This document shows positions 3,189 through 27,400 of a stretch of DNA of 64,000 nt, piece after piece. Numbering within the stretch: position 1 is the first letter of the stretch; each line of letters opens with the position of its first letter. Both the position numbers and the translations under genes were made by a program. The stretch is from Acanthaster planci (lineage: Eukaryota). Below the pieces are notes generated by a model, which saw only the letters and a program-made list of their open reading frames with translations, did no database searches and was not told where the DNA came from. The stretch is from contig NW_019091361.1 of assembly GCF_001949145.1 (NCBI RefSeq), forward strand, positions 1,205,588 to 1,269,587, read 5' to 3'.

Positions 3189-3434
3189 ATGCTTTACCAG
3201 TTCTGTGGGGGGGTACTCACGAGGATGACAGGTGGAATTAGGACGTTACCCCTGGGAGTACTGTTTGTACTATCCCTCCAAATTGTTTGCCTGAGCTCAT
3301 CCCCGAATGGGCCACGATCTGGGGATGGGTCCAAACCGGCAGTGTTCACCAACACGTACGCCGTCCACATCAGTGGTGGGATTGAAAAGGCCGATGAGCT
3401 CGCTGAAAAACATGGCTTTGTTAACCTAGGCAAG
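3189..3434 (+). CDS. FURIN: Furin coding exon 1: signal peptide and start of prodomain (exon begins at 3163)
   Basis: Acceptor ttctttctcctctgcag ends at 3162. ATG at 3189, second ATG at 3225 followed by hydrophobic [42 protein letters not shown]. Donor AAG|gtaaga. Confidence 0.9.
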
Positions 3435-6400
3435 GTAAGAACATGTACATGCATTCTGGGATTGCTTTTGGAAAATTGTCTAGTGCTGCAAGTAGGTGCC
3501 AAGGAAACAAGATAAAATTAGATTTCCAGCGAATTGTGTTTTTGTTATTTTTCACGAAACAAGTTCAACTAAACTATGCTTTTGATGTGTCAGAAGAACC
3601 TTCAGCATTCTTTCCCAGGATGGCGCCCACGTGGCCAAAGGGGCGATCTTCTATCAGTCTTTTTCTAACGAATAATGGCATTTTGTTATTTGAGATTGGC
3701 GAACAACTTAGAGATCTGGCAAAATTCCATTGCAACGTATTTACACTACGACTTTGATCAAACCAAACGAAAGGCAAATTAGGCTACCGCTCGAACCAAA
3801 TCTTGTCATGCGCTGGATCGCTGCACTGGCCCGCCTGGCAAAGTCAGTTTTCCCTCCGGAGTTGCCTTCGATCGAGCAGGAATCCGACTGTGATTAGCAT
3901 CCAATCAAAAATCATTTTTCACAGCCATTTATGACATCGTTGACCTAATATGGAATGTAAGGGCGTGGCTATCGGAGATTGGCAAACTTAACCCTAACTG
4001 CCCAAAACCTGCCATACTCCAACAGCAGGTTTTCTGNNNNNNNNNNNNNNNNNNNNNNNNNNNNNNNNNNNNNNNNNNNNNNNNNNNNNNNNNNNNNNNN
4101 NNNNNNNNNNNNNNNNNNNNNNNNNNNNNNNNNNNNNNNNNNNNNNNNNNNNNNNNNNNNNNNNNNNNNNNNNNNNNNNNNNNNNNNNNNNNNNNNNNNN
4201 NNNNNNNNNNNNNNNNNNNNNNNNNNNNNNNNNNNNNNNNNNNNNNGTGAGGTTCAGTACGCTTTCTAGTGCAGAAGCCTAGGGGGTTAGGGATAATGTA
4301 AATCTGAATATTTATAAGCACAATTGGATGTAGTGAGAATTTAGAATTGTGTGCAGCGGAAATGTCGTATGTTGCATGTTCTCGGTTGATTATTAGTGAA
4401 TTCTCACCACGTGCTTTTTACAACCATTGCGTAATGCAGGGCCACCATAAGTACTTACATGTACAGTGTACATTTATAGTACCTTCGTGATGCACATGCG
4501 CTAACACACGCTGGGGCGGCATAACTCGTTATCCATTGTTCGTCATGTTTGCTTTTTTTTCTTGCATGCATTCTGTGCGCTAGTAATGCCATGCAATATT
4601 AAAGCCATATCTGAACTGACCCTTTCGGTTCAGTTCGAGTCGAAAGTGCCATGTTCAATGATTTTTGGTTCAGTTCGGCTGCAGCACTAGTACTATCTCA
4701 GGCAGTCACTCTGAAGTCCTTCCTCTCACAACCCCCCCATCGCTATTTTCACTTGTGTCTTCATTTCTGAAATGCAGTTCAGATTGCTTTCTTAGCTTTC
4801 GTAAACATGCAGACTCATGTACATGTACATGTAGTTAATTAATAGTTGTATGACCTGTTTTTATTGATCATACTCAAAGCTCTGTAAAGTCCTGAACCCA
4901 TCTAAATTGAGAGAAATTTGTGAAGAAACCTTCAGTCTGTCTGATATAAACCATGACAAACAGTGCACTGTGCATTTTCCTCAAACTAAAGAAAGTCTTA
5001 AGATTTTTTAATCTTTTTTTTCCCCACAGATCGTTGATAACCATTATCATTTTCTGGATCATCACGCCATTGAGAAAAGATCGCTGTCCTCAAACAAGGA
5101 AAGACATCTGCACCTTAAAAAAGAAGAACATGTAAGTACACAGAGCAAGGGACATTTACAGTAAACCTTACATGCTTGATGAAGGCCTTGCTATGCACTT
5201 AGGCTTTGATGGTATTTAAGTTTTTAGGGCGGTAGTTTTTCAGTACTGAAAAATACTGACTGGCGATCCATAAATACGAAATTACCAGCAAATACCATAT
5301 GGAATTTTTATACCATGGTATTCTTGCTAAAAAAAAATAAGGAAAACCCCCATATGGTCGTATTTCACTCCACCTCTTCCAAGTTCATATACCGGAACAG
5401 CTGTCCTTGATGAAGAACAGTACATGTACATTGTACATGTGTGTGTCTGTGTACAGGGTATAAAATGTACAATGCATGTACATGTAGATACATTTGAATG
5501 GTTTAATATTGCCTCTTTCTACATGTACATGCACATGTTTACATATGTTATGCACAAATGTACATGTACATAACACAATATGTCACTATTGCATACCATA
5601 CATGTACATGTACATGTTTAGATGAATATACATTTCATAAAATTTCCACCGTTTTAAGAAATTATATCTGTTAAAAGTACAGATAGATGGGACCACGGAC
5701 TGCATTTGGAAGTTTCCAAATTTGGGGAGATAAATGTAATTCAGTTATGTACACGTATTGTCCAAGACATCTACATACATCTTGGACATGTATGTAAAAG
5801 TTGGACCAACAATGCCGATCAATTCCTTTATGTCTGGGTTTTACTCCAGCTTTTTTAAATTCACTCTCACAAGTACATGTCTTAAAGTGACATTGGGGAA
5901 CTGAAACATATATACCCAGCAAGAAATGAGACCAAGGGGTACCCCCCCAACATGTCCAATCCCTATACACATTCCAGACTATTGTTACTTAACACATCCC
6001 CCCCCCAAGATGTCTGAAAGGAATTCCCCCGATTCCTGTGAGACAATGACCAACACAAAGCAGGGGGGGGGTTCTCTCCGTCTCATACCTTGCTGCATAT
6101 GTGTTTGCCAACCACAAAGTGCATGTTGTCACATGTGAGACCATGGTCAGACCAGATGGTCAGATGGTCAGGTTCTCAATAGCACAGTGTACATGTACTG
6201 TACATCCACCTCAGTCACCACCTCAGATACATTGTACGTGTACAGTAATTAGGTTGGCAAAAGCAGTTGAATTTCGTTACCAAAATCAGTTCTCCCCATC
6301 CAAGGAAATTGAACCAATTTCTCCCATGTTGGGAATAGGCATGTACATGTACCTATACTAGTACATGCAGTGTACAAGAGCATGTACTGTACATGTACGT

Positions 6401-9400
6401 GTACATTTTCATGTACAAAATTGTTCATGCACAAGTACCATCAGTACCGTACATGTATGAAACTTGTATGTTTTTGCTGTACATGAACATGGAATGGGCA
6501 TGACGTGCAGATTTACCAATACGTACCGGTACCGGCACATAAAACATGTACATTGTAGATCAGATCCATACTGGCACATGTATGTTAAAGTGAGACGCAT
6601 ACCAGTACATGTACATGTGCTGTAATTCTTGACAGCATCTTTGTGACATGCTTTTTCTCATTTTTGTATGAGTGGACTTGAGACTTAAATCGTTTGTGCC
6701 CTGTTGTCATTTTCTTGTATTCGTATGTACCGGTATGTACATGTATGTTCCATTTAAAAAACAGCGTCTCCAGTGACCCTTTTCTCTGCTTCATCAAAAC
6801 ATACCGGTACATGTACATGTACCAGTGCATGTACATGTATGTGGGTCTTTATTTTAATATTGGGGGCAAATATGTATTTCAGGGATATCACAATTATCGT
6901 GACCATTTAAAACAAGACCAGTTTCACTTTCCCATTTAATTTTCATATATTTGTCGATTAATACATGTATGTGTTGATTACATTAAATTCATTTACATTA
7001 AAAAAAGTTGATTTACACAATAATTACAAAGGAAAAACCTCATCGTTTCTCACTATTTTTTCAGTATTTAGTGTGACATTTTGGATGACCTGTTTCACAT
7101 GACATATTCCTACCACTGGCAAAACAAATAAATTGTTTATTTTCTAACTAACCTATCAACAGAAAGGTAAATCATGATATCAGATAAATCTCCAAATGAA
7201 ATTCATTCTAATTGAGAATACAGGTGCCGTCATAATCTGATATAACAATGTTAAATTTCGTTCCTCCAGTTGTTACGAAGTTAAAATAATTTTTGGCTTC
7301 TATTCATCAATTTTGATGTCATAAAGCATTATTACTGTCACCAAACATTGCCCATATTGTTGTGGGTTCAACATTTGTGAATAAAAAAAGAAGCCTTTTA
7401 TAATGAAAATGTAGAAACACGAAGGATTGGGGCATAAAAAGAATTCTTGTTAAAGGAGAATCTTGTACTTAAAATGCTGTTATTAACGAGGTTGGACTGT
7501 CATGACTGAAGGGGTAGGCCCATAAAAACTTGTCACGCACCCACTGGCCTACTTGAAAGTTAAAAACATAACTGCTGTCTTTACTTGATAATGAAGAAAA
7601 TGTCAAAGAAAGTTGCAGAGATACATGTACTTAGATGCCGGTTCACATTTGTATTCAAGTGGAATGCAAAGAAAGTTTGATGTCACGAAGCATTTATGCC
7701 AAAAAGTTCAACAAAATCCCCACGTCCAATTTTGTGATTTGAGCTGTATGCTAATGTACATGTATGTTGATGACGTCACAGCGCGCCGGCCTAGCGGACC
7801 ATTCACAAAATAGCACCAGCATGCTGAGTCGGCCGGCGTGGCGCACGCGCGCCGGTGACTGTTTCCTGAGAGGCGTAATGTGCATTGCACTGTTTCCATG
7901 TGGTCACTGCCACCGAACGTTCCGCCGCTCACAAGATAGTCGCCGGCACACGTGTACCGACTTGACACAGCACACTGTTAATGGACTGCTAGGCCAGCAT
8001 GTCATGACATTGTTAACGGACATTAGCATATAGGTAAACTCGCAAAATGAAAAATGGCGACGACGACAAGTGTCTCCGATTCGAAGGGGAAAAATGTTTC
8101 CTTTCTTCCATACGCTGTTTTAAGTGGCTATCGTGCTCCTCTTTTTGGCAAATACGTTCAGTTTCGGGTAAATTTTACCTTCATGTCTTGAGGAGAAACC
8201 TGCAACCCGTAACTTTTTGTCACAGCCTAACGTGTGAGTAACAAAAACTTTGATCGAAATTTCTCGACGTTGAAAGAATGGCAGGAACTTGGCATGTTTG
8301 TGTCAGGTGACAAACACATGACAGCGCATGCTGGCTTGCAATATGATCCCGACTCGGGTGAACGTTGGAAGTTGCACGAACGTTTTTGTTTACAAATTAA
8401 CGATTTTGCGAGTAACCAAAATATTTTTTGACGAGAATTGACAGGGATATCTTCAGAAATGTTTGGGATCTCAGGTTAGTAGGAGGTATTTTGGGGGGGG
8501 GTTACTCAGAGTTGATATTTTAGGTTTTGAAAATGATTTGCAACAGCTTTTTGTTTGTTTTTAACAGCAAAAAATGATTTTAACTTCATAACAACTGGAG
8601 GAACGAAATGTTACATTGTTATATCAGATTATGACGGCACCTGTATTCTCAATTAGAATGACATCAAAATTGATGAATAGAAGCCAAAAAATATTTTAAC
8701 TTCGTAACAACTGGAGGAACGAAATTTAACATTGTTATATCAGATTATGACGGCACCTGTATTCTCAATTAGAATGACATCAAAATTGATGAATAGAAGC
8801 CAAAAATGATTTTAACTTCGTAACAACTGGAGGAACGAAATGTTACATTGTTATATCAGATTATGATAGCATCTGCATTCTCAATTAGAATGAATTTCAT
8901 TTGGAGATTTATCTGATATCATGATTTACCTTTCTGTTGATAGGTTAGTTAGAAAATAAACAATTTATTTGTTTTGCCAATGGTATGAATAGTCATATGA
9001 AACAGGTCATCCAAAATGTCACACTAAATACCGAAAAAATAGTGAGAAACGATGAGGTTTTTCCTTTGTAATTATTGTGTAAATCAACTTTTTTTAATGT
9101 AAATGAATTTAATGTAATCAACACATATTAACTGACAAATACATATGAAAATTAAATGGGAAAGTGAAACTGGTGCAGTTTTAAATGGTCATGATAATTG
9201 TGATGTCCCAGAAGTACACATTGGCCCCCATCTCAAAATAAATGTACATGTACTGTTAACAGTTTGGGGAAGAGTTCAAGGAAGTCACATGTGAAGTTGT
9301 GTGCGCTTGTCAATATCAAAAACCCTAGCCTCTGTATTGATTGATGCATTGAATACATTTGCCAGCCATTGAAGACATGATTTGGAAATCTCCCTGCCAA

Positions 9401-12400
9401 CCTTCCATTACCTTATATTGGTGTACCATCACTGCAGGTGCATTGGGTGGAGCAGCAGGTAGCCAAGAGCAGGATGAAGAGAGACAGTACCACTCCTGCC
9501 AGTTCTCAGCTCAACGATCCAAAGTGGCCGCTGTGGTATCTGGTGAGGGGAAGTTATTTTGCTAACCTGCATCCCTCCCTTTCTATCCTCAATCCCCCCT
9601 CAGTGCTACTCAGGGGCAATGCATATGTTTCATGGCATTTGTTTATTAAATGATATCATTGTTGTGAACAACGGAATGCAGAAGGAATCCAGAAAAAAAA
9701 AAACCCAGACAAAATATTGGTACCAGGCTGTTCAGTAGACCATACACAAGACTTTACAAGTTCAGGGGTGAACTTTGACAAAGGAATGCTCTTGTTGCAG
9801 CTGATTGGAATAGTTTGTGACCTGACTTCAGACTGGACATCATGTGTTGGTCTTGTAATGGTCTTGTTACATGTACGGGGGGTATGTGTAGGGTGTATGT
9901 GGTCAGAAGGGGTCTCTAGATTTTGACTGTGACACTGATGGCACATTTTCAGGCTGCAGATTTGCAAATGTTGAACACAATTCAATTTTGGTGAATTTCA
10001 CAGTAAATGCCTTGTAATACCGTGCATGTTTGAAATTTTTTTTGCCTTTTTACATCGTCGGGAAGCATGAACCAACCAGTACTTGCAGGTCAAAAAAAGG
10101 AAAAGTTGGAAGATTGAAATACTATTAAAAATAGTACATATCTGAAAATGATATACTGCATTTTACCACCTCTACAAGCACATGTACATTACCAAACCAT
10201 TCATTTTTTCTGCTGTTTTTACTTTTTTCTAAACCCAGCAAAGAGAGCCAGGCCTTGATATGAATGTAATTCCAGCCTGGAAAAAAGACTACACAGGCAC
10301 TGGTGTTGTGGTGTCCATTTTGGATGATGGAATCGAGAAAAACCATCCAGATCTGAGTGCCAACTACGTAAGTACAGTAGATGATGTCATGGCATTAACT
10401 GCAAACTTTAGCAAATGGCATACGAGTCAAACCTTCCAACAGATTTTTAAAAAATCCTTACAGCTTTTCTTTTTACCCTGAAGCACGTCACCAGTACTTG
10501 GGGAATTTGATGATGGACTACCCATCTGCAAAGAGAAAGAATTCCAAAAAGCAAACATTTCAGAGAATTGGAAATTGGTGTGGTTTCCTGGACGTTCAGT
10601 ACATTTTGCCTGGTAATGCCTAAGGCATGTGAACAGTATACTGGTACATGAACCCAAGAATGGGTGTTATAACTTCCATCGATAATGATGTCAGAAACTG
10701 TTTGTATTTCCTCCTTTCAGTCTGGTGCAGCTGAAGATGTGGTTCACATTAACATGAACCCTCTTGCTGTAAACAGTGGATAAAACAATCATCTGGGACA
10801 TCAGTTGCAATATCCAGTCAAACTGATTTTTTTTAAGTAGCATGACTTCAGTTCGGTAATATGTCTGTCGACAGAATGGCATTCAAGGTCTTTAACATGT
10901 AAAAGTTTTGCAAGTTACATGTTATTTAAGCCGTGCTTAGAGCCTATTTTGCTTTCAGGTTTTCCAGTTGCTTTATTCCAATTTCTCCCAAGTCGCAGAT
11001 GGGAGTTGGTTTAAAATTCCCTATAGGGCAAGTCCTCAATGTCATGCCTGCTTTGCACCAACCTTACATGCATTGGAAGTTCCACCTTCAAAGACATTTC
11101 TGGATTTCAGTGTTCTTTATTCTCTTGTTGGGTGTCTGGATGGAAAATACCCACGCGAGTTTTTTCCTGATTGAGTGTCCAAGTGTTTGAGTGATGACTG
11201 AGTAATTTAAAAAGAAAACATGGTATTACATGTGGGACAAAAAGGGGGCTTTTTTTGTGGACTTACCTGTAAAATGTTCAATAATTGGTTATCTACAGGT
11301 ACATGTATGTGTTGACATGTTGATATTTTACATTGTGCAATCTTGATGTCGGCATAAGGGTGCTCACTTCCATGTGTAAATTGTTTGGAAGGTTTCGTAC
11401 TTTTTTCTTTGTTTATGCGCTATACACATACTTGTACGTTTACCCGTTTGTGCCTACAAGTCACATTGTTCAATGTTGTATTAGAAAATGTGTTGGCTCA
11501 AAGTAGCAGTTTCTTTGGATTTTGTTTGTTTTGGTACAGGTGCGAGTGTTTGATGTAGTGCTTGTGAATGTGCCTGGTTTACCAAAAATTACAAAAATGC
11601 CATTTCCTGCAGTAAATGGCATTTAGTCTTTATGCTCACTCAATAGAGCTGACACGTTTGTGTACGGTGCCTCTTTTTAATTCTATAGTTCTCATCCCCA
11701 ACTGACCCCACATGCACCTGTATTGTTGGCAAAATGAGAAACCTTGTTTGGAACTGCCAACCCTTTAGAAAACTTAAAAGGAGAAGACACTCTTCCCAAT
11801 TCTTTGGGGAGGAGGGAGGGAGGGACAGAGCAAAGTGCAATGAGCTGGTTTTAAAGTACCTGGTACCGATAGTACAGGTACGTTAAAAAACTGCATCTGG
11901 GGCTTGGCGATGTTGGCTCCAAATCTCTGGCCAGTATTAATGCATGACGTCGTACGGGTACTTGATTATATTAAACCAACCTTTCACCATTTAGTCCTGT
12001 TTCTAAATGCTGTACATGTACACATATGTGTACATTTTCCTCTATAATAAATATATTTATGGTAGAAAGGATCAGAAAACTTTAATTCTAGTGGTTTTGC
12101 TTGCACATGTGGTGCTCCATTGGCCCCCCCCCATGAATGCATGTTCAAAATAGTTGAAAAAACTTTCTAGGCGTGTTTTATTATCTGATAAAACCACCCT
12201 CACGAAGTCCTGTGGACTAATCATAGTAGTCAGTCTTTAATACATGTACATGTACATGTATTATGATTAAGGGAATACATGTGTAATTGTTTTGGAGAAG
12301 TTTTAAACTAGTACATGTAGATTTCAATCCGGATAGGGCCTGGGAACAATACTGAAAGTCCATTATTGGTGCCAGGCCCCCTTGCTGTTTGAAATTTATT

Positions 12401-15400
12401 TGTTTAAACTGCTTCATCACACTTTTATTCCCATTCATATATGGTAGTACGGTACCTTTTTGCTTTAAAGTAGACTTACATGTAAGTCGATAATTCATGC
12501 TGTTAATACTCACCATTTAAATTTTTTTTTAAACCAACTGGTCACCTCCTGAGGTCAAAAATATATGAGAACTATAGAATACAAAAGGGACATCATAATG
12601 AGTCAACCACAAGTCAGTCACAAGTTGTGTGACATTGACAAGCCAGGGCACAAGTATTGGAAAGTAGTAACAGTGGACAGTGAAAATATTACACATGTAT
12701 AGGCCTACATGTACATGTGTGTTTGTGATGGTTCAGTTTTGAGTATGACTTGACTTGAGACCAGATGACTTGTGGTCAGAGGTGTAATGTTCCAAAAATG
12801 CATTGATAACCATTGTATTACATGCCACAGGCATTTACATGTAATGTATATGCGGTCATGATGGCCATTGCATGTACCTGTAAAAAAGTGTTCTCTTGTA
12901 AATGCTTGCATTCTTATACAGCCGTACTTGGTGTGATTCTTTCACTTGCAATGTCTGCAAAATCTATGGTCATCAGTGGTTTGCATGTTGTTGTTTTATT
13001 GTGATGTTTTATTTAATATATCAGGATCCAGTTGCCAGTTATGATGTGAATAGCCGAGACGACGACCCCCAGCCCAGATATGATTTCACCAACGAAAACA
13101 GGTGTTGTGTGTGTGTGTGTGTACATGTACAGGGACCCCATTCTCACCCACATTGACCCATCTCGACTTGGGCTTGAACCCTGTTCATGCATTCATTGTG
13201 CAGGTTGATGGACCGGGGCAGGAATTCCTGACCCCCCAAAACTGCATGGGTTGGCCCAGCACATTCATTTATTGGTAAACTCTGATGTTAACACAAACAT
13301 GTAGTGTGAATATTGATTTTTGCAGAGGTTTAAACTGGGGGCTGTTCTCTTTTTTATTTCTGTTTTCATTTCACAGGCAAGCATTAAAAGAGTTGCTTGT
13401 GATGAATGAGGAAAATGTCCAAAAAAGTTCAGAATATTCTTGATGATTCCTTTCAAAGAAAAGGTTTCATTCATATTGAGGGGCTCTTCGCAAAACGCAC
13501 AGACAGTTTTTCCAAGCATACCCCTAGCTGCTAAATATATTACTCAAGATTTTAGCTGCCTCAGAAGCTTACCAAACATTTGTGTGTGACATGAGAAGCA
13601 GATGCCTAGGCGTTTGTGAAAATTCCTCTCTGCACAGCAGTCCATTTCCTGCAGAAAAAAAAATATTTCGCAGGATTGATGTTCCCACCGCCAACTTGTT
13701 TGGCATCAACAAGTTGTGGTTTTTTTCAGGGAAGATTAAGCGGTGGGGTTGTACGGTACCCGGTATCCATCATTACCTCCACATGGTCCACAATTGGACC
13801 AGCAGGTGCGGCCAAAAATCGAGCTGGGTTAAGATGGGGGGGCATTAGTGCATGATCTGCGGCCTCGTCCTTTTGCACTCAGACTTCATTTTCTTTCCTG
13901 TGCCATGCTCCCATTTCAGCTTCTGCATGCCGTGCTGATTGAATTCAGTCAAACCTTTTCATTTGCACGCAGTCCTTTTACAGTGTACTGAAGTTCAACG
14001 TGATTGGAGTGTATCAGAGCAAATAGTAGGTCACCTAAGCAAAGCAGTTTTGGATTCCAATGGCATTGTAGTTTGCTGTAGCTGTGTGTCACAGTACTCA
14101 AGTCCAACTGCGCAAACTTATGTACATGTACCATTACCAACTCTATGACCTATGGTACATCAGGCCCTAATGAATACCGTGATTGTTCCAAGACAGAGGT
14201 TGTCAGTTCACCTTTCATTAAAAATGGATAAAGGACATTACATTCTAGAAAGTAGATAATAAACATCGCTGAGTTGCTGACGGTGTCATTACACGGGTAG
14301 CTGTGTATGTAGACACTTCAAACGGTAAGGTACCGACATTCAGCCTACATGTACCGGTACATGTTCATATACCTAATAGGAAGTACAGGTACCATACAGT
14401 GTTTCACACACCCTAGTGCCTGGTTCTGTTAAAATTCAAATGTCACCAGTTACACCTACTGGGTACCTGTACATGTAGGTTTTCAAAGATTCCGGCAAAC
14501 CTGTAAATGTGATGTGTGCAAAGAAAAGGATTTCATTCAGCTGCGCCTGCTTGCATGCATTTTGTGTTTTTATTTCACACATACATGTACATGTAACTCA
14601 TCGTTTTGAGTTTTCTTGTCTTCAAGACTGGAAGTAAAGGTCATGTTTCATACTTTTTGAGTTTCGAGTTTAATTCCGAAATCAGCAATTTTGCATACCG
14701 TATACGTGAAATAGATACATTTGGCACATTTACCTACTGTGCCCAGTAGTATGTACATGTATGTGTTCACGCTTCTGTTTGGAAAATACCTTGGCCAGAA
14801 GGTACAGTGTAAGTCACAGTGAAACTGACGCCTTTGCTCTAGAGCCAATCGTATAGATAGATTTGACTGAGCTTTTTCACAATATTTTTAGGTGATGCTA
14901 ATGTTGTACACGTACGTGTACGAATACAAAACAGCAATGTTGGATAAGAGAAAATAAAATGCATAAACTTTGATTCTCATTCAATTTCAGTAACTTGACA
15001 AATTTGCAGAACTTACAGCAGTGTAACATGTTAGGACATTTTTTTCAAGCAGAATTTGTGTAAACTTACAACGCAGTACACATGCTGTGTTGCCTCGATG
15101 CCGGTACATAGGTACAACACTTGTACGTGTCACATCGATAAATTTGTTGGTGTGGAACAAACCTGCCTTGTACCAACCATTTATAAATCCCTAGAGTTTT
15201 TTGGAATGAAGACAGACATGGACTTGTACAAGAATCGGAATCTAGTGGATTGGTGCCTGAGTACTGTTGTCAGTTTCACTGGAATTAACTAAATTTTCAG
15301 CCTCAACTAATTTCAAAATCATTCAACTTTTAACCACCTGCTCACAACTTGCCGTTCATTCTTTCCTATTTCAACCATTGCAATCCTTGTCACAATGCTA

Positions 15401-18400
15401 ACAATATAAAGGATGCACCGGGCAGTTGGGATCTAAATGATAACGACGAGGATCCACAGCCTCGCTACTCACCATCTAACATAAACAGGTTGGAACTTTG
15501 TAGAACATAGTTTTATGGTGTTATTTATTTATCTTTAGTTATTCAGTTAGTTATTTTAAAGGTGTTTTTTATTTTATTATTTTGGTGTCGAGATGCTTTG
15601 TGTTTGGGGATTTTACCCTTCATTGACGTATATTTATGACATTATACATGTATGTTCAGTGTTGTCATGAGGGCTTGGAAAAAATAAAAAAAACTTAGCT
15701 TGGATGGGGATCAAGCCCATGACCTCCTACCTACTATGGCAGATGTCTTATCACTCAATCACCGAGCTTGCCTGGGCTGGCTGGCTGGCTTGGGTCAGAT
15801 GAGCATCGTTACTAAGCCAAACATACAAACGATGTGGTTTTTGCATCAGGAATGTTTTTTTTTTTTTTGTACCGGGAGTTCTTGGCCCTTCACCAATGTA
15901 TAATATTTTTTAACTGAAATAATATTTGGATAGCTTCTTGCACTGGTATAAGAGTCCCTTGAAGTGTGTTGAGGAGGTTCAGTGGAGAAAACAGTGTTTG
16001 TGACTACATATATATCCAGGTTAAAAACAAGTCCAAGTTTATTTTAGGGAGAGGTCTTGTGGATGGTACTACATGTAAGCCATTTGCGAGTTAAATTTGA
16101 ATAAAATCTGGTACGCTGAGCTCTTAAACTTCACGTGAACATAACAACTTGAATTCTCCATACTAAAACCACTGTTGCTATACCTCGTGATTAAGCTTAC
16201 CCCTCGGGGTAAGCTTTTGCTTAGTTACATAAGAGATGCCTTGCAATAATGCACTGTTTTCAATGGGTAAGGAGGGCACAAAGGAACCAGTCCATTCCAG
16301 AGATGGTGGTCACTATGCAAAAGCTTGCCCCAGATCAAGAGGTATACATGTAGCAACAGTGTCTTTAGTCTGGGGAATTCAAATTATGTTTCTATGCAAT
16401 CAGATAATACAGTGTACCAGATTTTATTCAAATTTAACTCGCAAGTGGGTTATTTGCAAATGAGCATACTTGACTGGTTGCTACAACCTCTAAGGCTATT
16501 TCCATGATAGATATGATTGATGTGGTTTTTTTTTCATTGTTAGTTTCTCTTTTTGAATGGCAGATTTTGGTTGCATGATTAAGGAACAAGAAAAAAGTGC
16601 TAGTGTCTCCAAAAAGAAAAAAAAGAAAACAAAAAGAAAACCAGCCATGCACAGCATGCAAAGAATCTAGTGCTATTTGAGCAGATTTTGACGTCAAGAT
16701 GGATTGATCTGTAAAAACTTCAACAGTTTTTATAATACCGACCGTCACAATGTATTTTGGTCAGCACTGGCTTTGGAAACTCACTTTAAAATTCCAAATC
16801 CTAATTTACTCTCAGGTTTTTAAAGGAACTGGTCATTCAGAGTTGTTCTGTGCTGTTGAACCTTGAAAGAAGTGACTACTTTGGTCTGATGTGTCACCTA
16901 CCCGGTACATGTTCAGTGTTTTCCCTTCGCGAAGTCTATTTGTTCATTGCACTCCCACGCACCATGTCGGAGGAGGAGCTTGTCATAAAGGCATCAAAAC
17001 TTTCGCCCGTCAAATAATATCCAACACAGAATATTACCACAAGAGGTTTTTTACTGTGTGAGTGAGTTTCTGCATGCAACTGTGTATTGTGAGTTTGAAG
17101 TCAGAGGCATTGCCCTTCGGCGCATAGGAAGTGAACAAGTGAAGTACATACTGTGTAGGAGGAGGGCACTTCATTCAACGATCTACGCACATATGGCTAG
17201 AAGATTTCCTCTCTTTCGATTTACCTGAAATGAAATTCCAAAAGATTTTTTTTTTCAAGGGCAAATTAAATTGAATGTGTGGGGTATTCCCTCTTGTAGG
17301 AAGGATTCAGGAACGTTGGGAACTGACATCAGAATCAGGATTTCCCTAGTCCAGTTTTTATTGGAAAACCTTTTCGGCTTAACATCAACCACTGGTTGTC
17401 CTTCCTTTGGAAATCCTCAGAATCATATTCAAAACTTCACTTTCACCGACATGCGTGTATTTACTACATGTGTTCCTTCACTGGTTTATTTTTAACGTAA
17501 TGATTTATGGTTTTATTCATTTGAACCTGCTTTGTGGGGGAGGAGGGATTTTTTTGTGATGCTTTATAATTGAGCAAGACCCATACGTGACCCATGCACA
17601 AAGAGAAGTTTTTATAGTTACTGGTTTTAGGCCAATTGTGCATTTCCATGATTCACACATCTCATGGTGGAAGGTCGTTGGAAACATGCTATTACTAATT
17701 AGTTTTTTCTGTATGCTTTTAAATATTGGGAAAGGGCATCTTTTCAGAGTTTAGCTTTGGTGGAGCCTTTTAAGAACTGACCCTAAGAATAAGCTTGAAA
17801 GTGTAGACAGAACTTTCATCATGTTTGTGTGTTGGTGCATGCATACATAAAAGAAAGTAAGCCCAGAATTGTAAATGAATTAATATGAAGCTACTTGCAT
17901 TTAGTTCTACTATTGCTCTTTAAAACTAGCCCCATTAGGTCATTCATTTGTAACAAACCCAAACTACATGTAGCAGAAAGCAGAATTGAGAAACAAAAAT
18001 ACCACAAATGCTCTCCTGACGGGCCTGAATTGAAAAGTGGGGATTTTTATCGTATATTTTCAAAAGTGGTGCGTCATACAGGTATGCCACCAATTCAGGT
18101 AGAAGCAAAAGTGAAATGGTAAAGAAAGAAACAACAGGAGCATTTAGCTCCTTTTGCTTACATCACCTGGCTCTAGTTTCAAAAGGGCTCTGGACCAGAT
18201 AGCCAAATCTCATTCAGATTTCCCGAGTATTAGATTGGCCTCCTTTTCAGTGTTGATATCATCAGTGCATGCAGACATACCGGTACATATTGTTTTTTAG
18301 AGGAATTTCCCGTGTAAATCCAGCTCCTTTCAGCCTCATTATATGCCTTGTTATATTTGGCAAAAATATAGAGATGTTTTAATTACCTTGTTATTAATTC

Positions 18401-21400
18401 CAGTCATTAGTGGTAGTGTGCATGTACATGTATACATTATATTTAAATGTGTTTTTCCCATGAAGCTTGACCTTTTCCCCCAAATTGCTTCAAACGTTAA
18501 TCCTGAGCCATTTCAATCTTCCTAAGTAGCCTATCTGTGCAGAATCGCCCATCAATCAGGCTAGGAACAGTCAAAACACACCCTTTTACTAAAGTAGTTC
18601 TTTTGCATTGGCTCAGCTGCTTTCGATTCTTGATGTCAAAAGGTTGGGTAAGTCTTAAATCCTAAGTTGCCTCACCCACACAACTCCTACTGTTGTCCCA
18701 GTTCAAGTGGTCAAGATTCTGCCTGTCGTCCCCCCCTCCCACTTTGTTTCCATCTTTCCAAAGACAAGGTTAGAAATGTCATGCTTTCATCTCTCTGGCA
18801 AACAGATTATTCCAGCCAGCTCAAATTTCCACTTATTCAGATCAGTGTCCGATTAACGGCATCTGATTCAGTCTTGGTTCTTGAGAGAGGAAAGCATTTT
18901 TTACCACCGTTCTGTGATAACGCCCACACAGTGAAACAAGGATCCCTCTGACTACCTGGTTTCTTTAATTTACAGAGAGCTTTCATGAAATAGAAAAAAA
19001 ATGAAAAGATACAAGTCCTTTTATACGAAGACAGTAACAGAAAAAGAAGTACAGATATTTTTGGTTTCCCCCCATAGTAATATAAACATGTTGGACTGCG
19101 TCAGTGTCTGTCCGACGTCCCATTGCAAAATGAGGCTCAAGGAAGTCATTTTCACTTATACCAAAAGAATGATTCCATTACAGTGCCCAATTGCATATAA
19201 CACTCATTTTATTATTAAGCCCCAGGCTCTCCAAACATAATTGTGGAGGAATGTTTTTAACCGTGTGTTCAATTTCTAGTCCAGATGCCGTCCGATACCT
19301 TTGTCTTCAGCTCTTTAGCTAACAAACAGATTTTAATTAAATTTTGAAGCGATGACGCCCGAATTCGTGAGGTGCTTTGTGTTGGTAGTGTTACATGTAC
19401 ATACAGATCCTCCTATGTAGTAATTAAACGCCCACTTGCAGGATATCAAGTTGACATTTTAGTTGATTGGAAGTAAAGAAATCCTGCTGTCGCGACAGAA
19501 AATTTATTTTGCATAGATTACTGTGACCTCTAAACGTGTTGGTATATGCATGCATACAGCATATCTGGTGACAGTGCCTTACAAAAGTGCCTTTCAGTTG
19601 AACATCACAGATTTTACAAGTCACCAAGAAATGGAAGGAAACAATATGATTGCAACGCATGAAACTCACAGGCATTTCAGCATTAATTTCAATTAATGAA
19701 GCTTAAAAAAAACCCAGCTGTTTATAATTATGACATGGTTTATAATTTTCCAGCTTTTTCATCCAATTTAAGCTTTTCTGTCTTTGGAAAATAAGTGAAA
19801 AAAACATGTACCTTTAGAACTTACGCTTGTACATGTATGCATGTACATTAGTTCGTTGATCCTATTAGCATTAAACAGATTTTAAAGTGCGCACACTGAA
19901 TCTGCTGCTGAAGATGACAAAGTACCTTTCTCGCTGAAATTTGTGAGGTTCAATTTTGTTTTCCAACCTAAGTTTCATCCTCTTGATGTTTACACCTCTC
20001 GGGGTGTAGAAAATGCACAAAGGTACAGTGGCCCCAGTTGGGTGTCTGTAGAACATCCTCATGCATTGTTGATGTAGGAAAGTTGTGATGGCTCCCAACA
20101 TGTGGCTCGGACTGCCTGCTCGCTACCGCAGTCTCCCCCCTTGGGTGGCCCAGTGTCAGTCAGTCAGCTTGTACTTTGGCAGCCTTTCTCAGCTGTGTTT
20201 CTTTTTAAACCCGGGTTCAAACCCTCCCCAGAGCAGTATTTGAATGGTGATACCAGGTTTGGAATTCATGTGGATTTGCCCTGTTAGAGTGATGTTTGTT
20301 TTTGTTAAAATTCAAATGAATTTTTGCAGCTTTTTTGAATTCAGACATGTAGAAGTTTTTGGGTTTTTTTCAGGGAATTTACATCAGTGTTAAAGTTTAC
20401 TGATCTCTGTTTTTTTTTTTAACCAGGAATTCAGGATGCACACATACGTGTACATGTACGTCATTTGCTTGTAGAAATACTAAAATACTGTGCAGATGGT
20501 TGAGCAGAAAATTAGTTAGGACTTTTATAATTTATGTTGGCAAAGGGCAAACCCAAATAAGAAGGACTTGACCTGTGCCCTTACATCGGTGTATATGCAT
20601 AAACATTGTATACTCTGTTTTTGTCCGAGAACTTGTTAGATTTTTGTTGTTTTGGTGTTATATTTGAATCCAGTCCTCAGACGCTTTAGATTGGAACGAG
20701 GGTACTTTGTTCGAGTGGGAATAATGCGTCTTTGAAAAAGCAAAAATTGAATGCCGCAGAAACTATGCCCTTGAGTAGCCTCTACAATATTGCTGCTGAG
20801 GTATTCCAAAAACCCTCCAGGTAGAGCCATAAATGCAAATTTAGTTGTGGTCTAGTCAGAGGAAGCACTCTTGTAATTTTGTGAGGACCCTTTGGGCGAA
20901 ATCTCTTGTTGTTTGTCCACGCTTTTTATTACTATTAGAAAGCGGTGTCCCGGTGAAGTCGATCACGTTGCTGTCAGATCAGCTGCAGCATGAAATGTGA
21001 GTTTCTTTGGCCCATGGGGAAGAGATGATTTTTATTTCTCAGTGATTCTCAGAGTCTAGTGGAACAGACTCATCTTTCAACATTAGGCTAACTTTATTTT
21101 TTTTCTTGAGTAAATTTTTAAAGTGGAAAAAAATTGCTGGAGACGGCTCAGCGTACTGCCGTATGCGGAAGGTAAAGAAAAATGAAAATGACGTTCATTT
21201 GAAAGGTTGAAGGGATTAGAGTGACAGATGTTACGCCGGAAAATGAAGGAAGTCTTGCAGGGGTAATTTTGGCTGGCAGGTTGAGAAGTAGGGAGAGGCG
21301 AGGATAAGGTTTCAGACTGCCCTGAGTGCATGCAAAGTTGATCTTGGAATGAGCTGCATATTTGCATAATGTGGGTTGACTGCATGCAGTTCTTACTGTG

Positions 21401-24400
21401 CGTTGTAGTGTGCCGTGCATAGATGTAGGTACATGTTTATATTTCTTTTCTTTTTTTCTCCAAAATTGCACTAGAAAAACATTTAATTTGAATTGGAACT
21501 GAAAAACAAGGTTTGTGTTCTGTTGGGTTTTAAGTTTCATTTATACGAAATGATCTCAGTGCTAATAGGCAAATGAATGTTTTTGTCTTTTTGGAACAGA
21601 TGTTTTGAACTGGGAACTTAAGGCTTGTTTGTGTTATTGTGTTTTGCCTACGTGCACTAGTAGTGTCAAGGCAATATTTGCTGGTTTTTTCGGGGGTAAC
21701 AATTTTGCGTTAGAAAAGTTTCCAAACTGCTATTCCTACTACACATGAATTCATTCTCATCATCCATTGGGATTACCACCATCATGCATCAAAGCAGTTC
21801 TTTCATCTCTTCACCTCACTTACTCATACCTTGAAAAGTTTTGATACTAACTTATAAATATACTAAAAGATACTTTAACATACTAACTTAACCCTAACCC
21901 CAAGGGCATCTGTAAAATTGTATTGAAATTGGAGGATTTGGGACTGTTAGGGTTAAAGTAATTGACGATACCTCCATGATGGGTTTGCGGGTTTTTTTTC
22001 AAAAATCAGTATCTTCAGTTTTTATCCATAGTCCTATCTCGCCTACATGTATGACATGTCTATCATATTTCAGCGAACAACTCCCATGTTTGCATGTTTA
22101 GATCATTATCAAAAATATGTATTTAAGTAAATGTGCAAAATTCATACTTAATATTACATAATTCAAGACCATTGGATGCATTTTCACAAAAACGTTTGTT
22201 TATTCTACCTTCACTGTAGTTTCACAATGTAGGGCCATTTGGCAGATATGAGGTAATTAAAAGGTGTTGGGCAGAATCACCGCTGTGCTGCACTGAAACC
22301 TCTCGGAACACAATGGTGTAAACAATCCCCTTTGCCATGGGATCAATGCATGCACAACTTCAGTTGAAAAAGGAAAAGACAAACTTCCAATGTACATGCA
22401 GCCATTGTATAAATTGTCAAGTACTGGGTCACGAACAAGCTTGATTTGCATGTATACCTTCAGCTCGTCCTCATACATGAACGTTACATGTATATTCTAC
22501 CATAGCACAGCTTTGCTCTTTGTTAGTGTAAATTTCAAATGCTGTACCAGTAAATTTATTGATAAAGCAAAGCTTCAACATTCACGAGTATACATTTACA
22601 AGTATCCTTCAAGAAAAAAATCCTGGATGAAGGCCCTGTCATGCGTATAAATTACAGTATGAAGATATTGTCAAGCATGCTCAATATGGAGGTATCTTTC
22701 AGTTCAAGTATACCCAGTCCCTTTCTAAGTTGCATGCTGTATCCGAAGTGGGCATAGTTGAGTATGGCTATGGCTTGTCACTGTAGCGTGTCATTGGCAA
22801 ACAGCAAAGCCATATCCATTGAATGCTCTTTTCAGACATGGCCGTAACATGTATGTATTACTTTTCCCGTCATTTCTGTCTTGGTTTTTTTTTTCACAGG
22901 CATGGTACAAGATGTGCAGGAGAAGTAGCTGCTCTGGCCAATAACAGTATATGTAGTGTAGGCATTGCCTACAATGCAAGAATTGGTGGTGAGTGAATTG
23001 ACAGTGTGTGTAATGTACATGTACAGAGAATGTGGTGTAGATAGTGATGTTGTTGTATTTTAAATAAACAGTTGTTGCCTTGTAGATATCTTGATAACGT
23101 TCTTGTTGAGAAATGGAGGCAACACCAATATTGATCAAACAAGCCCAGACCAAAACTGAAAGGATTTTTCTGGTTTTTTTTTTCTAAGTTTTAGTGTGTA
23201 TTATTGTTAATACACTTCCGTTCACCTGGGTTGGTCTTCCTAGAATCGTGCTATTTTAAGTGCTTTCTTTGCCGATTTGGCAAATGAGTCAAACTGTTGA
23301 AACATCTTTGGGGAAATTTGTCAGATTGTAAATATCATTACATTAATCTTTGCATTTATCAAAGTAAATTGTATTCAGTAAGAATGTTTTGTGGAGGGGG
23401 GGTGTTGGCCAACCGTTTCATAAAAAGTAGTGTACTTGAAATTTGCTGTATACAGCAAAGTACTGTACATGCATGTTGATTTTTCAAAAGTTTCTCAGTG
23501 GAATATGAACGAAATTTTTACCCTGCTGTGACACATCACAGATCTCCATAACCACTTGCTTGCTTGATTGTCTCGGCTGTTTTTGACAACCTACAGTATA
23601 GTTTGTATAAATGATCAGCAAAGCCCAAAGGTCTCACTCAGTGCCCATGTACACATTTGACCTTACGCTGGTAAATATGCAAACCATATCCTGCACGTTT
23701 CGCAGATACAAACAAATTGTTACACAGACTCTTGGAAACGGTTATATTACAATGTTGTGTACACTCAATTGTCCTTAGCTCAGTGGTTTTGTTAGTTTGT
23801 CAACTGTTGCCCTTTTTACAAGGCCCTCCTTTTTTTGTCGTGCTGGACAAAGAGGAGGGTCTCCCAAAATGCAGGCCAAACTGAAGTGAGCTTATCAGTG
23901 TCCTGCAGGGTTTTGGGTACTGGGTATGTACAATGTGTATGTAAATGTTCATGCAGAGAGGAATTTAATCCTGCTGTTCCAAGCTTTGCAGCCACGTGGG
24001 CTTCATGCATGTTAGACGTATTAAAAATGGGAAAAAGGAATGTTCCAGATATTTGCAAAGCATTGAACATTGTCTCAAACTGTTCCAAAACTTTCTGAAG
24101 TACCTGCAAGCACCTGTCGTCTGATTCAGGAAAATGTATTTTTCCTCTTTAGTGAAAACAATTTGTCACCCTTTCCGAGTAACTTGGCAGATTGATGAGA
24201 GGAATTTTGAAAAGCTCACATGTGTGGTGTCTGGAGTTTTGTATGAATGCTATGGTCTTGGCTGTGCACTTAAGTGGAATTAGCTGTGGTCACGACTGTT
24301 TTCATTCATGGAGACTCTTGTCGTGCCCTGAAGGGTCGTTGCAGACGTGGGCACCATGCATGTCCGTGCCGACCAAATTATACTTGGAATGGTGAAAAGG

Positions 24401-27400
24401 GAATAGAAAAGGCTACAAGTCGTGACTGGGTAAGGATGCTCCTGCTTTTATTTGAGTGAGGTGTTGCCTCATGTCACGACAGCTCCTCTGAGGTATTGTC
24501 TTGCTTTATTCATGTTTCATGCCTCATTGATTCATCAGTATCTTCACGTCATTGCCAGGCGGTTGCATCTTTACCTTTGCTCATGCACGCATGAAGCCGT
24601 TTGTGGTTCGTGAGCTTGTTTGTCGACGGATCGTTGGTGAGAATTTTTTCCCAGTGTCTAGTTTGGGGAATCTTTTCTATCATTTCCTCATGTTCATTTG
24701 TCGCTCAGAAAATTATCGTCATTAATATTGAAGGCTTGTGGGTCTCAGATTTCACCTTGTATGGTTTATTTCCATTTGACATGTTTGAGCCAATGGGCAC
24801 ACTTGGCGTACTCCACATTGTAGTTGTGTTGGGTAACCTTTAGTTTTATGGGTTTTTCTGCAAAGTACTTGTACATACCATATAAGTATAATACCTGTTT
24901 GTCCAGATGTTCTGTATCACGGAGTCTTTATACAGCAACTTGTCCAAGATGAGGAAAATTGTTTTTAGTGGAAAGCATAACTACCGGTACATTGTGTAAC
25001 TAAAACATTTTGGGGAAAGTGCGTCCATCTTAATATAGTATCAGGGTGGAGATTCAGAGAAAAAATAGTGCAATATGTTCTTTAGGTGTTTGCATGGTGG
25101 TTTAGTTGGCATTCATGGACACATTTCCCCGGATGTGAAATGACCTTGCATATGGGGGGGGGAAAGTGTCCGTGGGAGTTATCAAATGGGTCTAGTGTGA
25201 ATGGTTGCTGGGGATTTGGTGGGATAAAAATCTCCCGGATTTTCGTAGGCATTTATTCCCCGGGGATTCGCTCTGCAGTGTGAAAAGGCCTTAATATAGT
25301 TAGTAGCAGGGTGGAGTTTCAGAGAAAAAAAAAGCAGTTTGTTCTTTATGTGCGTGCAGGGTGGTTTCCCAGTAGTTGGCATACATAGACATCGGCCCTT
25401 TCCAGTGCTAAACATCAATCTTGATGTACGAGTAAATCCCTCCCTCCAAAAAACAAGGACTTTATATCCAGGAAATAGGCTTTCATGCCATTAGTGGATA
25501 CCGGCAGATGTGTGCCATGTTTTTCCCCTCAAATTGCTCCTGTGTTTGCCAATTATCAAAGACTAATGAGCTGTCATGACCTGCTTGGTCGGCACTTTGT
25601 GCAGCCAGAGAGACTCCTAGCCTTGTGCCTACGATGTGTGAATTTTAAAAAAAATCTGTGGCTAATTGTAGCGATCATTCACTGGGTGTCAAGTCCTTAT
25701 CAGAGTTCCTCAGCTTATGTACTCAGTAAAGGCAAACGGTTCACTTTTAAGTACCCACATAATCTTTCACTTGTTGTGAAGCCACGCCTACTTAAAGGTT
25801 TGCACATGGAGGTGTAAGTTCCTTCAGGCAGGTACATGTATGGAGGCCCTGAGAGCATTCTGCTGTCATCCGTTATCATATAACACTTGATGTGAGCATC
25901 CTATCAACGTGAACCAATGAAATCAAGAGTCAGTTCACTGGTACTTTGCCATATTTCCTGTCATCTTGATTTCTGTCATGATTTTAAGTGCCCATGTTGA
26001 TGTGCAAGTGCATGTGCATCTTTCTATTTCTCTGCCTTGGTGACAGTGCTATCCTAATGACTTGGACCCTACTAATTGTTTTTCAGATGCGGACATTGTC
26101 TCATCATGGCTGCATGGTCTAGTTGGTGATCTGCAATTGCCAAAGAAGCCATTTGCGAGTTGAATTTGAATAAAATCTGGTACACTGAGTTATCTCATTG
26201 CACATTAACATAACATTTGAATTATCCAGACTATAGACACTGTTGCTATACCTCGTGATTCGGGGCAAGCTTTCGCTCAGCGACCATCATCTCTGGAATG
26301 GACTGGTTCCTTTGTGCCCCTCTTATCGATTGAGAACAGTGTATTGTTGCAAGCCGTCTTTTATTTATAAGCAAAAGCTTGCCCCGAATCACGAGGTATA
26401 GTAACAGTGATTTTGGTATGGAGAATTCAAATTGTTAGGTTCACGTGAATTTAAAGAACTCAGTGTACCAGATTTGGGTCAACGTTAACTCACAAAAGGC
26501 TTGTTAATAATCGATGACTAGACCAAGTTCAAATGTTATCACATAGAAAGTTCCAATACATGTAGGTCAGACCTCAGACTGGTGTGGGGCAGGAGCTGTC
26601 ATGGAGGTTTGGAAACTGTACCAAGTTTAGAATATCCGTATATCCCGCTAAGCACATGGAATTCATAAAGTCCAGAAGGAAGGATGATGATGACATCGGC
26701 AAAATCAATTGTCAAGAAAGTAACCTGCACAAACTGTGCTACAGCATGTCTGATGAAGGGAGGATGGCACAGTTGGGTCTTCCTTTGTTCCATTCAAAAA
26801 TGAGGGGTGCGCCTGTGGCCCAATTGCCCTCTTCAAAAACTTGGAAAGAAGGGGTTTATGTATGCCTGTGTTAGAGTTTATAGTTGCATATACACGTACA
26901 GCACAAAGCAAGTTCATGGACTGATAATTGTGTCAGGGTTGTACGTGTTCTGCCATAAATGATGACCCCTTAAAATACATGTAATACAGAGTACTGAGGA
27001 ACAGATGCTGGTGGTCAGTTATTCAGGCTTGGTTAAATTATTTGACATTCCTTACAATTTGACAACAGTATTAGTAATACATAATTCCACTGCCTGGGTA
27101 CCTGGTGTTCCACGACCCCTGTACTGCCGAAAGGAACGACAGGAAAGGGGGGGAGGGGAGCCGTTAGCTGCACTTGGATCTGTTTCTATAGGCACCCATA
27201 TTTATTTCATGCAGCAGTAGAATGACATTCCTGTACAGGGCTCCCTCACCTCAGGGCATTCCATAAATCAGGTATCAGAAAAAGCCTGCTTTGTGGATCT
27301 TGCTGTTACATGTAGAGGGCCGGGGCATCTGTCTGCAGAAGTGCATATTGTCATCCACTCACAGTGTAGATGATTATAATATTGAAAGTCGTGGCAAAAT

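What the first reader, a model, noticed from the sequence alone, without database searches (positions are those of the whole stretch)
13025..15488. Mutually exclusive 77-nt exons swap the loop just before the catalytic His of furin
Seen in sequence: two exons of identical length (77 nt) and phase (0/2), [26 protein letters not shown] and [26 protein letters not shown] (14/26 identical). Conserved residues often use different codons (e.g. CCC CAG CCC AGA TAT versus CCA CAG CCT CGC TAC), which suggests purifying selection on both. Including both exons gives a stop (AGG ATG CAC CGG GCA GTT GGG ATC TAA), and skipping both gives TAA in the next exon, so only single inclusion is productive. Established, from recalled human furin numbering: this exon spans about residues 168-193, with Ca-binding D174/D179/D181 (kept in both copies) and D191/N192 lining the S2 pocket next to H194. 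Inference: variant A keeps an acidic residue (E) at 191 while variant B has Ile, so splicing could retune P2 substrate specificity within one gene.
Basis: partly seen in the sequence, partly recalled or inferred. Interest (0 to 1): 0.87.

Follow-up and report, generated by a model that had tools for sequence, protein, structure and literature searches.

The report
Echinoderm furin swaps its pocket loop
The starfish furin gene holds two interchangeable copies of the exon for the loop beside the catalytic histidine; database gene models give the same two-version loop in sea cucumber, sea urchin, feather star and acorn worm, and in echinoderms the rarer version would likely change which precursor sites the enzyme cuts.

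Summary
Observation confirmed. The window is a furin gene matching Acanthaster planci RefSeq models X1 (exon A) and X2 (exon B). Both exons are 77 nt, 14/26 identical, and only single inclusion keeps the frame. Isoform pairs differing only in these 26 residues are annotated in 6 of 12 ambulacrarian species seen (two starfish, sea cucumber, sea urchin, crinoid, hemichordate), and in none of 14 outside clusters. Exon B is 23/26 identical between the two starfish (exon A 20/26). All 6 B versions have Leu175 (Val in 78 of 81 other segments). All 5 echinoderm B versions have Ile/Met/Leu at furin position 191, an S2-pocket residue (0 of 81 others). Against: exon B was not seen spliced in 7 RNA runs, all of which show exon A; the hemichordate second copy keeps Glu191; arthropod furins have Ser191; no kinetics exist. 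Verdict: a real, old, selected mutually exclusive pair with B as a minor isoform (about 0.9). That it retunes P2 preference is plausible but untested (about 0.45). Ten literature searches found no description, though the isoforms stand in databases as automated predictions.

The parts
3189..39646 (+). Furin-like gene, 13 coding exons per isoform (3189-3434, 5030-5131, 9438-9542, 10239-10367, A or B, 22900-22988, 31812-31984, 34685-34897, 35820-35920, 36312-36415, 36910-37027, 37426-37736, 39126-39646)
   Evidence: Exon chain with AG/GT ends translates exactly to P0001, XP_022105565.1; P0038, XP_022105574.1, differs only in the exon
10239..10367 (+). Constitutive upstream exon with the catalytic Asp (furin 153) and Asp154; strong GTAAGT donor
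   Evidence: joints 9542^10239 and 10367^13025 in reads
13025..13101 (+). Exon A, 77 nt, phase 0/2, furin residues 168-193, Val175 and Glu191; the major form
   Evidence: Joint 10367^13025 in 4 of 4 raw RNA runs (8, 3, 22, 19 reads) and in contigs of 3 of 3 further runs; in P0001
15301..15411 (+). Unusual acceptor of exon B: 109 nt free of AG, AAG acceptor, 45% pyrimidines in the last 20 nt; candidate distant branch points 78 and 101 nt upstream (predicted)
   Evidence: the other 13 acceptors have AG-free zones of 16-69 nt and 60-90% pyrimidines; 2 of 724 AG-to-AG gaps in 10368-22899 reach 90 nt
15412..15488 (+). Exon B, 77 nt, phase 0/2, Leu175 and Ile191, keeps Asp174/179/181, Asn192, Arg193; the minor form
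   Evidence: In RefSeq model P0038; 23/26 identical to the Asterias rubens X2 segment; no joint seen in 7 runs
22900..22988 (+). Constitutive downstream exon; supplies the last base of Arg193 and the catalytic His194

Best explanation
The gene holds two homologous 77-nt exons of which only one at a time keeps the reading frame, and the rarer copy B, likely kept since before the echinoderm classes split, would replace an acidic S2-pocket residue with a hydrophobic one and so likely shift which basic sites the enzyme prefers. Shown: the anatomy, exon A splicing, and matching annotated isoform pairs in six species. Inferred: (1) B is spliced in a restricted tissue or stage; it has a weak, possibly distant-branch-point acceptor, so A is the default; (2) double inclusion and double skipping are cleared by nonsense-mediated decay, since both shift the frame; (3) the pair arose once by tandem duplication in the echinoderm, perhaps ambulacrarian, ancestor; (4) the B enzyme is active, keeps Asp154/Asn192/Arg193/His194, and depends less on Lys/Arg at P2 or cuts such sites less well, because position 191 loses its acid and the 185-193 loop is one to two charges more positive. 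About 0.9 for a real, selected pair; about 0.45 for the P2 step.
For: Frame logic. Same-length isoform pairs whose differences all lie inside the 26 residues in Acanthaster, Asterias rubens, Apostichopus, Lytechinus variegatus, Antedon and Ptychodera. B is 23/26 identical between the two starfish, A 20/26, the 42 residues upstream 37/42. Leu175 in 6 of 6 B versions against 1 of 81 other distinct segments; Ile/Ile/Met/Ile/Leu at 191 in 5 of 5 echinoderm B versions against Glu 48, Asp 16, Ser 16, Thr 1 of 81. Loop 185-193 is more positive in B in 6 of 6 pairs. The five echinoderm B segments form one side of a branch in the exon tree, support 74/91, not starred. Residue 191 lines S2 and differs between mammalian paralogues: Glu in PC1, PC4, PACE4, PC5; Phe in PC2; Gly in PC7 (PMC2820236 Table 2). 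Predicted B isoform matches furin 5jxg at TM 0.96 by target, rmsd 1.5 A.
Against: No read or contig joint into exon B in 7 runs; X5 had zero depth over 15412-15912 with 8 reads on the A joint; X9 had 22 A-joint reads and no listed B joint; contigs of X14, X17, X18 had zero depth on B. All 8 full-length echinoderm-type furins with a Logan source are A-type. Six of 12 ambulacrarian species show one version only. B-to-B identity between classes (12-18 of 26) is hardly above A-to-B (10-17). Ptychodera X2 keeps Glu191; Antedon B loses Asp181 and Tyr186. An acid at 191 is not needed in general: Ser in 16 of 81, and Ile/Leu/Met/Val in 25 of 150 unnamed hits of a B-biased profile search. PMC2820236 puts mammalian specificity differences on 230 and 257, not 191; a passage of PMC11859198 describes inhibitor contacts to the Asp191 main chain. 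The model's loop 211-220 has pLDDT 59, so it says nothing on pocket shape. Other species' DNA was not seen: that their pairs are exon pairs is inferred.
Confidence: 0.55

Rival explanations
1. The pair is real and selected, but B tunes something other than P2 preference: the low-affinity Ca(III) site, propeptide release and activation, overall activity, or sensitivity to an inhibitor such as a serpin.
For: The exon carries the whole Ca(III) site and half of the A/B differences lie in residues 169-180 around it; the one residue shared by all six B versions is Leu175, not 191; Antedon B loses Asp181; Ptychodera X2 keeps Glu191; PC2, PC7 and arthropod furins do without an acid at 191.
Against: Position 191 is the only pocket-facing position that switches class in all five echinoderm B versions, and the three Ca ligands are kept in 5 of 6.
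Confidence: 0.3
2. The second exons arose more than once (for example in starfish, in other echinoderm classes and in hemichordates) and converged on similar changes; only the starfish B is surely orthologous. This concerns origin and is compatible with either function.
For: B-to-B identity between classes 12-18 of 26, like A-to-B 10-17; clade support 74/91 unstarred on 26 columns with two long branches, bootstrap not settled; PMC8373072 reports such repeated origin for ACOX1 (passage).
Against: Leu175 in 6 of 6 and aliphatic 191 in 5 of 5, states nearly absent from 81 other segments; same exon duplicated in a gene set that groups as Ambulacraria (93/83); B plus Ptychodera X2 as one clade is not rejected, p-AU 0.48.
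Confidence: 0.15
3. Exon B is a silent leftover or an artefact of automated annotation and makes no meaningful protein.
For: No B joint in 7 runs; weak AAG acceptor without a near pyrimidine tract; all isoform records are automated predictions; 8 of 8 Logan-sourced proteins are A-type.
Against: 23/26 identity between two starfish orders, higher than exon A; open frame and kept structural residues in six species; pN below pS. RefSeq alternative models normally rest on transcript alignments (recalled, not checked here).
Confidence: 0.07

Closest known systems
Tandem exon duplication-derived substitutions / homologous mutually exclusive exons (236 human cases, PMC8373072; FGFR IIIb/IIIc, PMC5703972)
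   Same: Two homologous exons of equal length and phase, one used at a time, kept over hundreds of millions of years, swapping a surface that meets a partner.
   Different: Neither FURIN nor any PCSK occurs in the main text or the one held supplement of the human catalogue. Here the swap is in a protease's substrate pocket loop directly before the catalytic His, and it is seen only in ambulacrarian records.
Furin (PCSK3) and the kexin-like convertases, peptidase family S8B
   Same: Prodomain, catalytic domain, P domain, Cys-rich stretch, transmembrane helix; triad and oxyanion residues align without gaps to mouse furin; TM 0.96 to human furin.
   Different: Vertebrate, amphioxus, mollusc, brachiopod and arthropod records examined show one version of this loop per species; their annotated isoforms differ elsewhere.
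PC2 (Phe191) and PC7 (Gly191) paralogues
   Same: Non-acidic residue at S2 position 191 (PMC2820236 Table 2).
   Different: In mammals the state is fixed per gene and comes with changes at 193, 230, 257, 295; here one gene would give both states while the rest of the pocket stays furin-like.
Distant-branch-point exons (alpha-tropomyosin exon 3, alpha-actinin; PMC1431707)
   Same: Long AG-free zone before a regulated exon; zones of 100 nt or more are enriched for alternative exons (passage).
   Different: Exon A's donor is 2.3 kb upstream, so a distant branch point cannot block A-to-B joining sterically as in tropomyosin; the branch point here is only predicted.

Membership tests
Furin-like kexin convertase (S8B) | Asp/His/Ser triad and oxyanion Asn in register | tested here: met
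   D180, H221, S395, N322 of P0038 align to furin 153, 194, 368, 295 without gaps
Furin-like kexin convertase (S8B) | Prodomain, S8 catalytic domain, P domain, then Cys-rich stretch and transmembrane helix | tested here: met
   PF16470, PF00082, PF01483 precomputed for P0001; helix 683-711 in the model; fold match to furin
Furin-like kexin convertase (S8B) | Orthology with vertebrate furin rather than PC5/PACE4-type genes | tested here: inconclusive
   Groups with ambulacrarian and amphioxus furin-like genes (86/85); relation to the vertebrate furin clade unresolved, few paralogues sampled
Furin-like kexin convertase (S8B) | Cleavage after R-X-K/R-R | not testable with these tools
   No activity data for either isoform
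Homologous mutually exclusive exons | Homologous exons of equal length and phase in tandem between the same flanking exons | tested here: met
Homologous mutually exclusive exons | Each exon is spliced into transcripts | tested here: inconclusive
   A: yes, 7 of 7 runs. B: not seen in those runs; present only as a RefSeq model
Homologous mutually exclusive exons | The two are not joined to each other or both skipped in productive transcripts | tested here: inconclusive
   Both products carry premature stops; the read tool skipped 13095-13137, so joints from exon A's donor could not be read
Homologous mutually exclusive exons | Both versions conserved across species | tested here: met
   At protein-record level in 6 of 12 ambulacrarian species; genomic DNA of those species not seen
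Distant-branch-point exon | AG exclusion zone of 100 nt or more | tested here: met
   109 nt
Distant-branch-point exon | Branch point mapped far upstream | not testable with these tools
   Candidates at 78, 101, 123 nt and one at 10 nt; no lariat data

The most novel reading that the evidence does not exclude
Echinoderms have kept, since before their classes split, a splice switch that turns one furin gene into two proteases: a standard furin and a cell-type-restricted enzyme with a PC2/PC7-like uncharged S2 wall and a different set of substrates. It would be the first active-site specificity switch by splicing in the convertase family, doing with one exon what vertebrates did with gene duplication.
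Probability: 0.3. Interest if true: 0.8.

Novelty: new variant of a known kind. Interest (0 to 1): 0.63.

Why it matters
Convertase isoforms on record in the clusters examined differ in tails and linkers, not in the catalytic cleft. A natural pair that is identical except for the 26-residue loop holding the Ca(III) site and the S2 wall is a ready-made experiment on what residue 191 and its loop contribute to specificity, a question that paralogue comparisons confound with many other changes. If B is tissue-restricted it adds a layer to how echinoderm hormones, neuropeptides, growth factors and matrix proteases are processed, and it adds an old, phylum-wide case to the short list of conserved mutually exclusive exons outside vertebrates and insects.

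Tried and rejected
No whole genome is held for the window, so only the window's DNA was examined. Run search listed no RNA holder of the stretch; RNA runs came by species label. A protein search with the exon B frame alone found no candidate (weak by design). A metagenome scan with the B profile gave 3 loci with 10-14 residue matches, taken as chance and not followed. Repeat search over 10368-16070 gave 41 direct families and 90 inverted pairs (20 and 25 shown), mostly TACATGTA-type repeats; no convincing docking/selector pairing, and no second species' DNA to test one. The first structure job, with 3 sequences, failed (mean pLDDT 37) and was not used; no model of isoform A was made. The Atlas look-up of unnamed P0350 (Ile191) did not reveal its lineage. 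U12-type splicing was rejected: the flanking donors are GT-AG U2-like. Steric exclusion by a short intron was rejected: A and B are 2,310 nt apart. Earlier scan findings: four look-ups returned nothing. In the 81-segment count, 4 furin2-type proteins out of register (P0005, P0052, P0068, P0136) and 32 records without the motif were dropped from 277.
Full report
Observation. Of 262 AG...GT-bounded 77-nt windows, B matches A at 13 of 25 positions and the next best at 5. There is no third copy in the window. pS between the copies is 0.76 and pN 0.34.

The gene. A search with the upstream exon returned P0001, named furin-like isoform X1 of Acanthaster planci. Its cluster has a second member, X2 (P0038), also 762 residues. 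Thirteen window exons translate exactly to P0001, and P0038 differs from it only at 12 positions inside the exon, which read as exon B. So both isoforms are already in RefSeq as automated models. The alignment to mouse furin 1p8j has no gap here: the exon is furin 168-193, directly before His194. Asp174/179/181 form the lowest-affinity calcium site (PMC12649860, passage). Asp154 and Asp191 delineate S2 (PMC11859198, passage); Asp153, Asp154, Asp191, Asn192, Arg193 and His194 are listed as P2 partners (PMC2820236, whole text read; PMC2515848, table passage).

RNA. Four raw RNA runs labelled with the same species, 18-24% of each read, show the joint 10367^13025 with 8, 3, 22 and 19 reads. Repeats crowded that table: 15 of 69 joints were displayed, none into 15412. 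Depth over 15412-15912 was 0 in X5, 0.3 in X8, 0.4 in X12 and 1.9 in X9, the last equal to its intron background. A narrower lay with a complete joint list showed 10367^13025 in contigs of X14, X17, X18 and in X9, no joint into B, and zero contig depth on B. The tool skipped 13095-13137, so joints from A's donor could not be read. Tissues are not stated. Exon A is thus the major form; exon B was not seen spliced in 7 of 7 runs.

Other species. Cluster look-ups gave equal-length isoform pairs whose differences all fall inside the same 26 residues in Asterias rubens, Apostichopus japonicus, Lytechinus variegatus, Antedon mediterranea and the hemichordate Ptychodera flava. With Acanthaster that is 6 of 12 named ambulacrarian species with the segment; Asterias amurensis, Holothuria leucospilota, two Diadema species, Anneissia and Glandiceps show one version, which may reflect annotation only. 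All 8 full-length echinoderm-type proteins with a Logan source are A-type. Fourteen clusters outside Ambulacraria (amphioxus, 15 of 18 members listed; lamprey; Lingula; seven mollusc clusters, with oyster 15 of 23 listed; four arthropod clusters) show one version per species. I did not see the other species' DNA; that their pairs are exon pairs is inferred from the exact overlap.

What B keeps and changes. Between the two starfish B is 23/26 identical, A 20/26, the 42 residues before 37/42: B is under strong constraint. All 6 second versions have Leu175; 78 of 81 other distinct in-register segments have Val and 1 has Leu. At 191 the five echinoderm B versions have Ile, Ile, Met, Ile, Leu; the 81 others have Glu 48, Asp 16, Ser 16, Thr 1. 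Asn192 is invariant; the loop 185-193 is one to two charges more positive in B in 6 of 6 pairs. Exceptions: Ptychodera X2 keeps Glu191 and Antedon B has Phe181 and Lys186. Between classes B diverges faster than A (12-18 against 16-22 of 26), so B-to-B identity is hardly above A-to-B (10-17). In a tree of 26 segments the five echinoderm B versions are one side of a branch at 74/91, unstarred, on few columns; adding Ptychodera X2 is not rejected (p-AU 0.48). A tree without the exon groups the host genes as Ambulacraria at 93/83. One origin before the crinoid split (about 480 million years or more; date recalled) is the simplest reading but is not proved.

Splicing mechanism (inferred). Both donors are weak (GTGTTG, GTTGGA). 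B's acceptor is the oddest of the gene: AAG, 45% pyrimidines in the last 20 nt, and 109 nt without AG against 16-69 at the other 13 acceptors, with branch-like words 78 and 101 nt upstream. AG-free zones of 100 nt or more mark alternative exons with distant branch points in human genes (PMC1431707, passages). This fits a default-off, regulated exon B. The copies are 2,310 nt apart, so steric exclusion is out; no pairing scheme stood out. Frame shifts in the double and skipped products make nonsense-mediated decay the likely clean-up.

Enzyme consequence (inferred). A 103-sequence AlphaFold model of isoform B (mean pLDDT 77.5) superposes on human furin at TM 0.96 by target, but its loop 211-220 has pLDDT 59 and cannot show pocket shape. 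Among mammalian paralogues 191 is Glu in PC1, PC4, PACE4, PC5, Phe in PC2 and Gly in PC7, so B moves furin toward the PC2/PC7 state at this one wall. Against a large P2 effect: that same paper assigns specificity differences to 230 and 257; inhibitor contacts to the Asp191 main chain are described; 16 of 81 segments have Ser; and 25 of 150 unnamed hits of a B-biased profile carry Ile, Leu, Met or Val there, mostly in other convertase types. One of those, P0392, is a B-like segment with Leu175 and Val191 flanked by non-furin, intron-like sequence exactly at the exon borders; its organism is unknown. I put about 0.9 on a real selected pair, 0.45 on a P2 shift, 0.3 on another property such as calcium dependence or activation.

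Literature. Ten full-text searches found no description of this pair. The human catalogue of 236 tandem-exon substitutions has no furin or PCSK entry in its text or its one held supplement (PMC8373072). The Esrp study names sea urchin FURIN only in an expression table (PMC5703972). An echinoderm matrix review says furin's domain organisation does not differ from vertebrates and mentions no isoforms in the passages seen (PMC10381214). The library lacks most subscription journals and older cloning papers, and bioRxiv supplements are closed, so absence from print is not proved.

Verdict. A new variant of a known kind: an old homologous mutually exclusive exon pair, here at the substrate cleft of a proprotein convertase and seen only in ambulacrarian records. 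The pair is well supported; expression of B and its biochemical effect remain to be shown. Interest 0.63.

Noticed in passing
window 38830-39125 (+): A likely second duplicated exon: an alternative acceptor at 38830 opens a 97-residue C-terminus paralogous to the start of the main last exon (E 6e-5), ending in a hydrophobic stretch with no cytosolic tail; its stop TAG (39123-39125) is the acceptor AG of the main last exon. Short isoforms of Antedon (P0181, 14/26 identical at the start) and Anneissia (P0063) end in a similar way, suggesting a conserved tail-less, possibly GPI-anchored or secreted furin. Not in the two Acanthaster records; not tested with reads.
   Followed up: partly
window 16076-16460 and 21897-21961: Dispersed repeats in the intron after exon B that draw hundreds to over a thousand RNA reads with unlike continuations.
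   Followed up: no
window 13033: T>C in all covering reads of X9 and X12, absent from X5; third base of a Val codon of exon A, so silent.
   Followed up: no
window 59181-59903 (+): A rhodopsin-type GPCR-like reading frame (DRY motif; family recalled) interrupted by an in-frame stop at about 59664-59666.
   Followed up: no
proteins P0062, P0115: Antedon and Glandiceps each have a second furin-like gene beside the one orthologous to this window's.
   Followed up: partly
proteins P0280, P0289, P0291, P0297, P0300, P0303, P0350 and others: An unnamed group of convertases with Ile or Leu at 191 as their apparent standing state and a different exon border; lineage not identified.
   Followed up: partly
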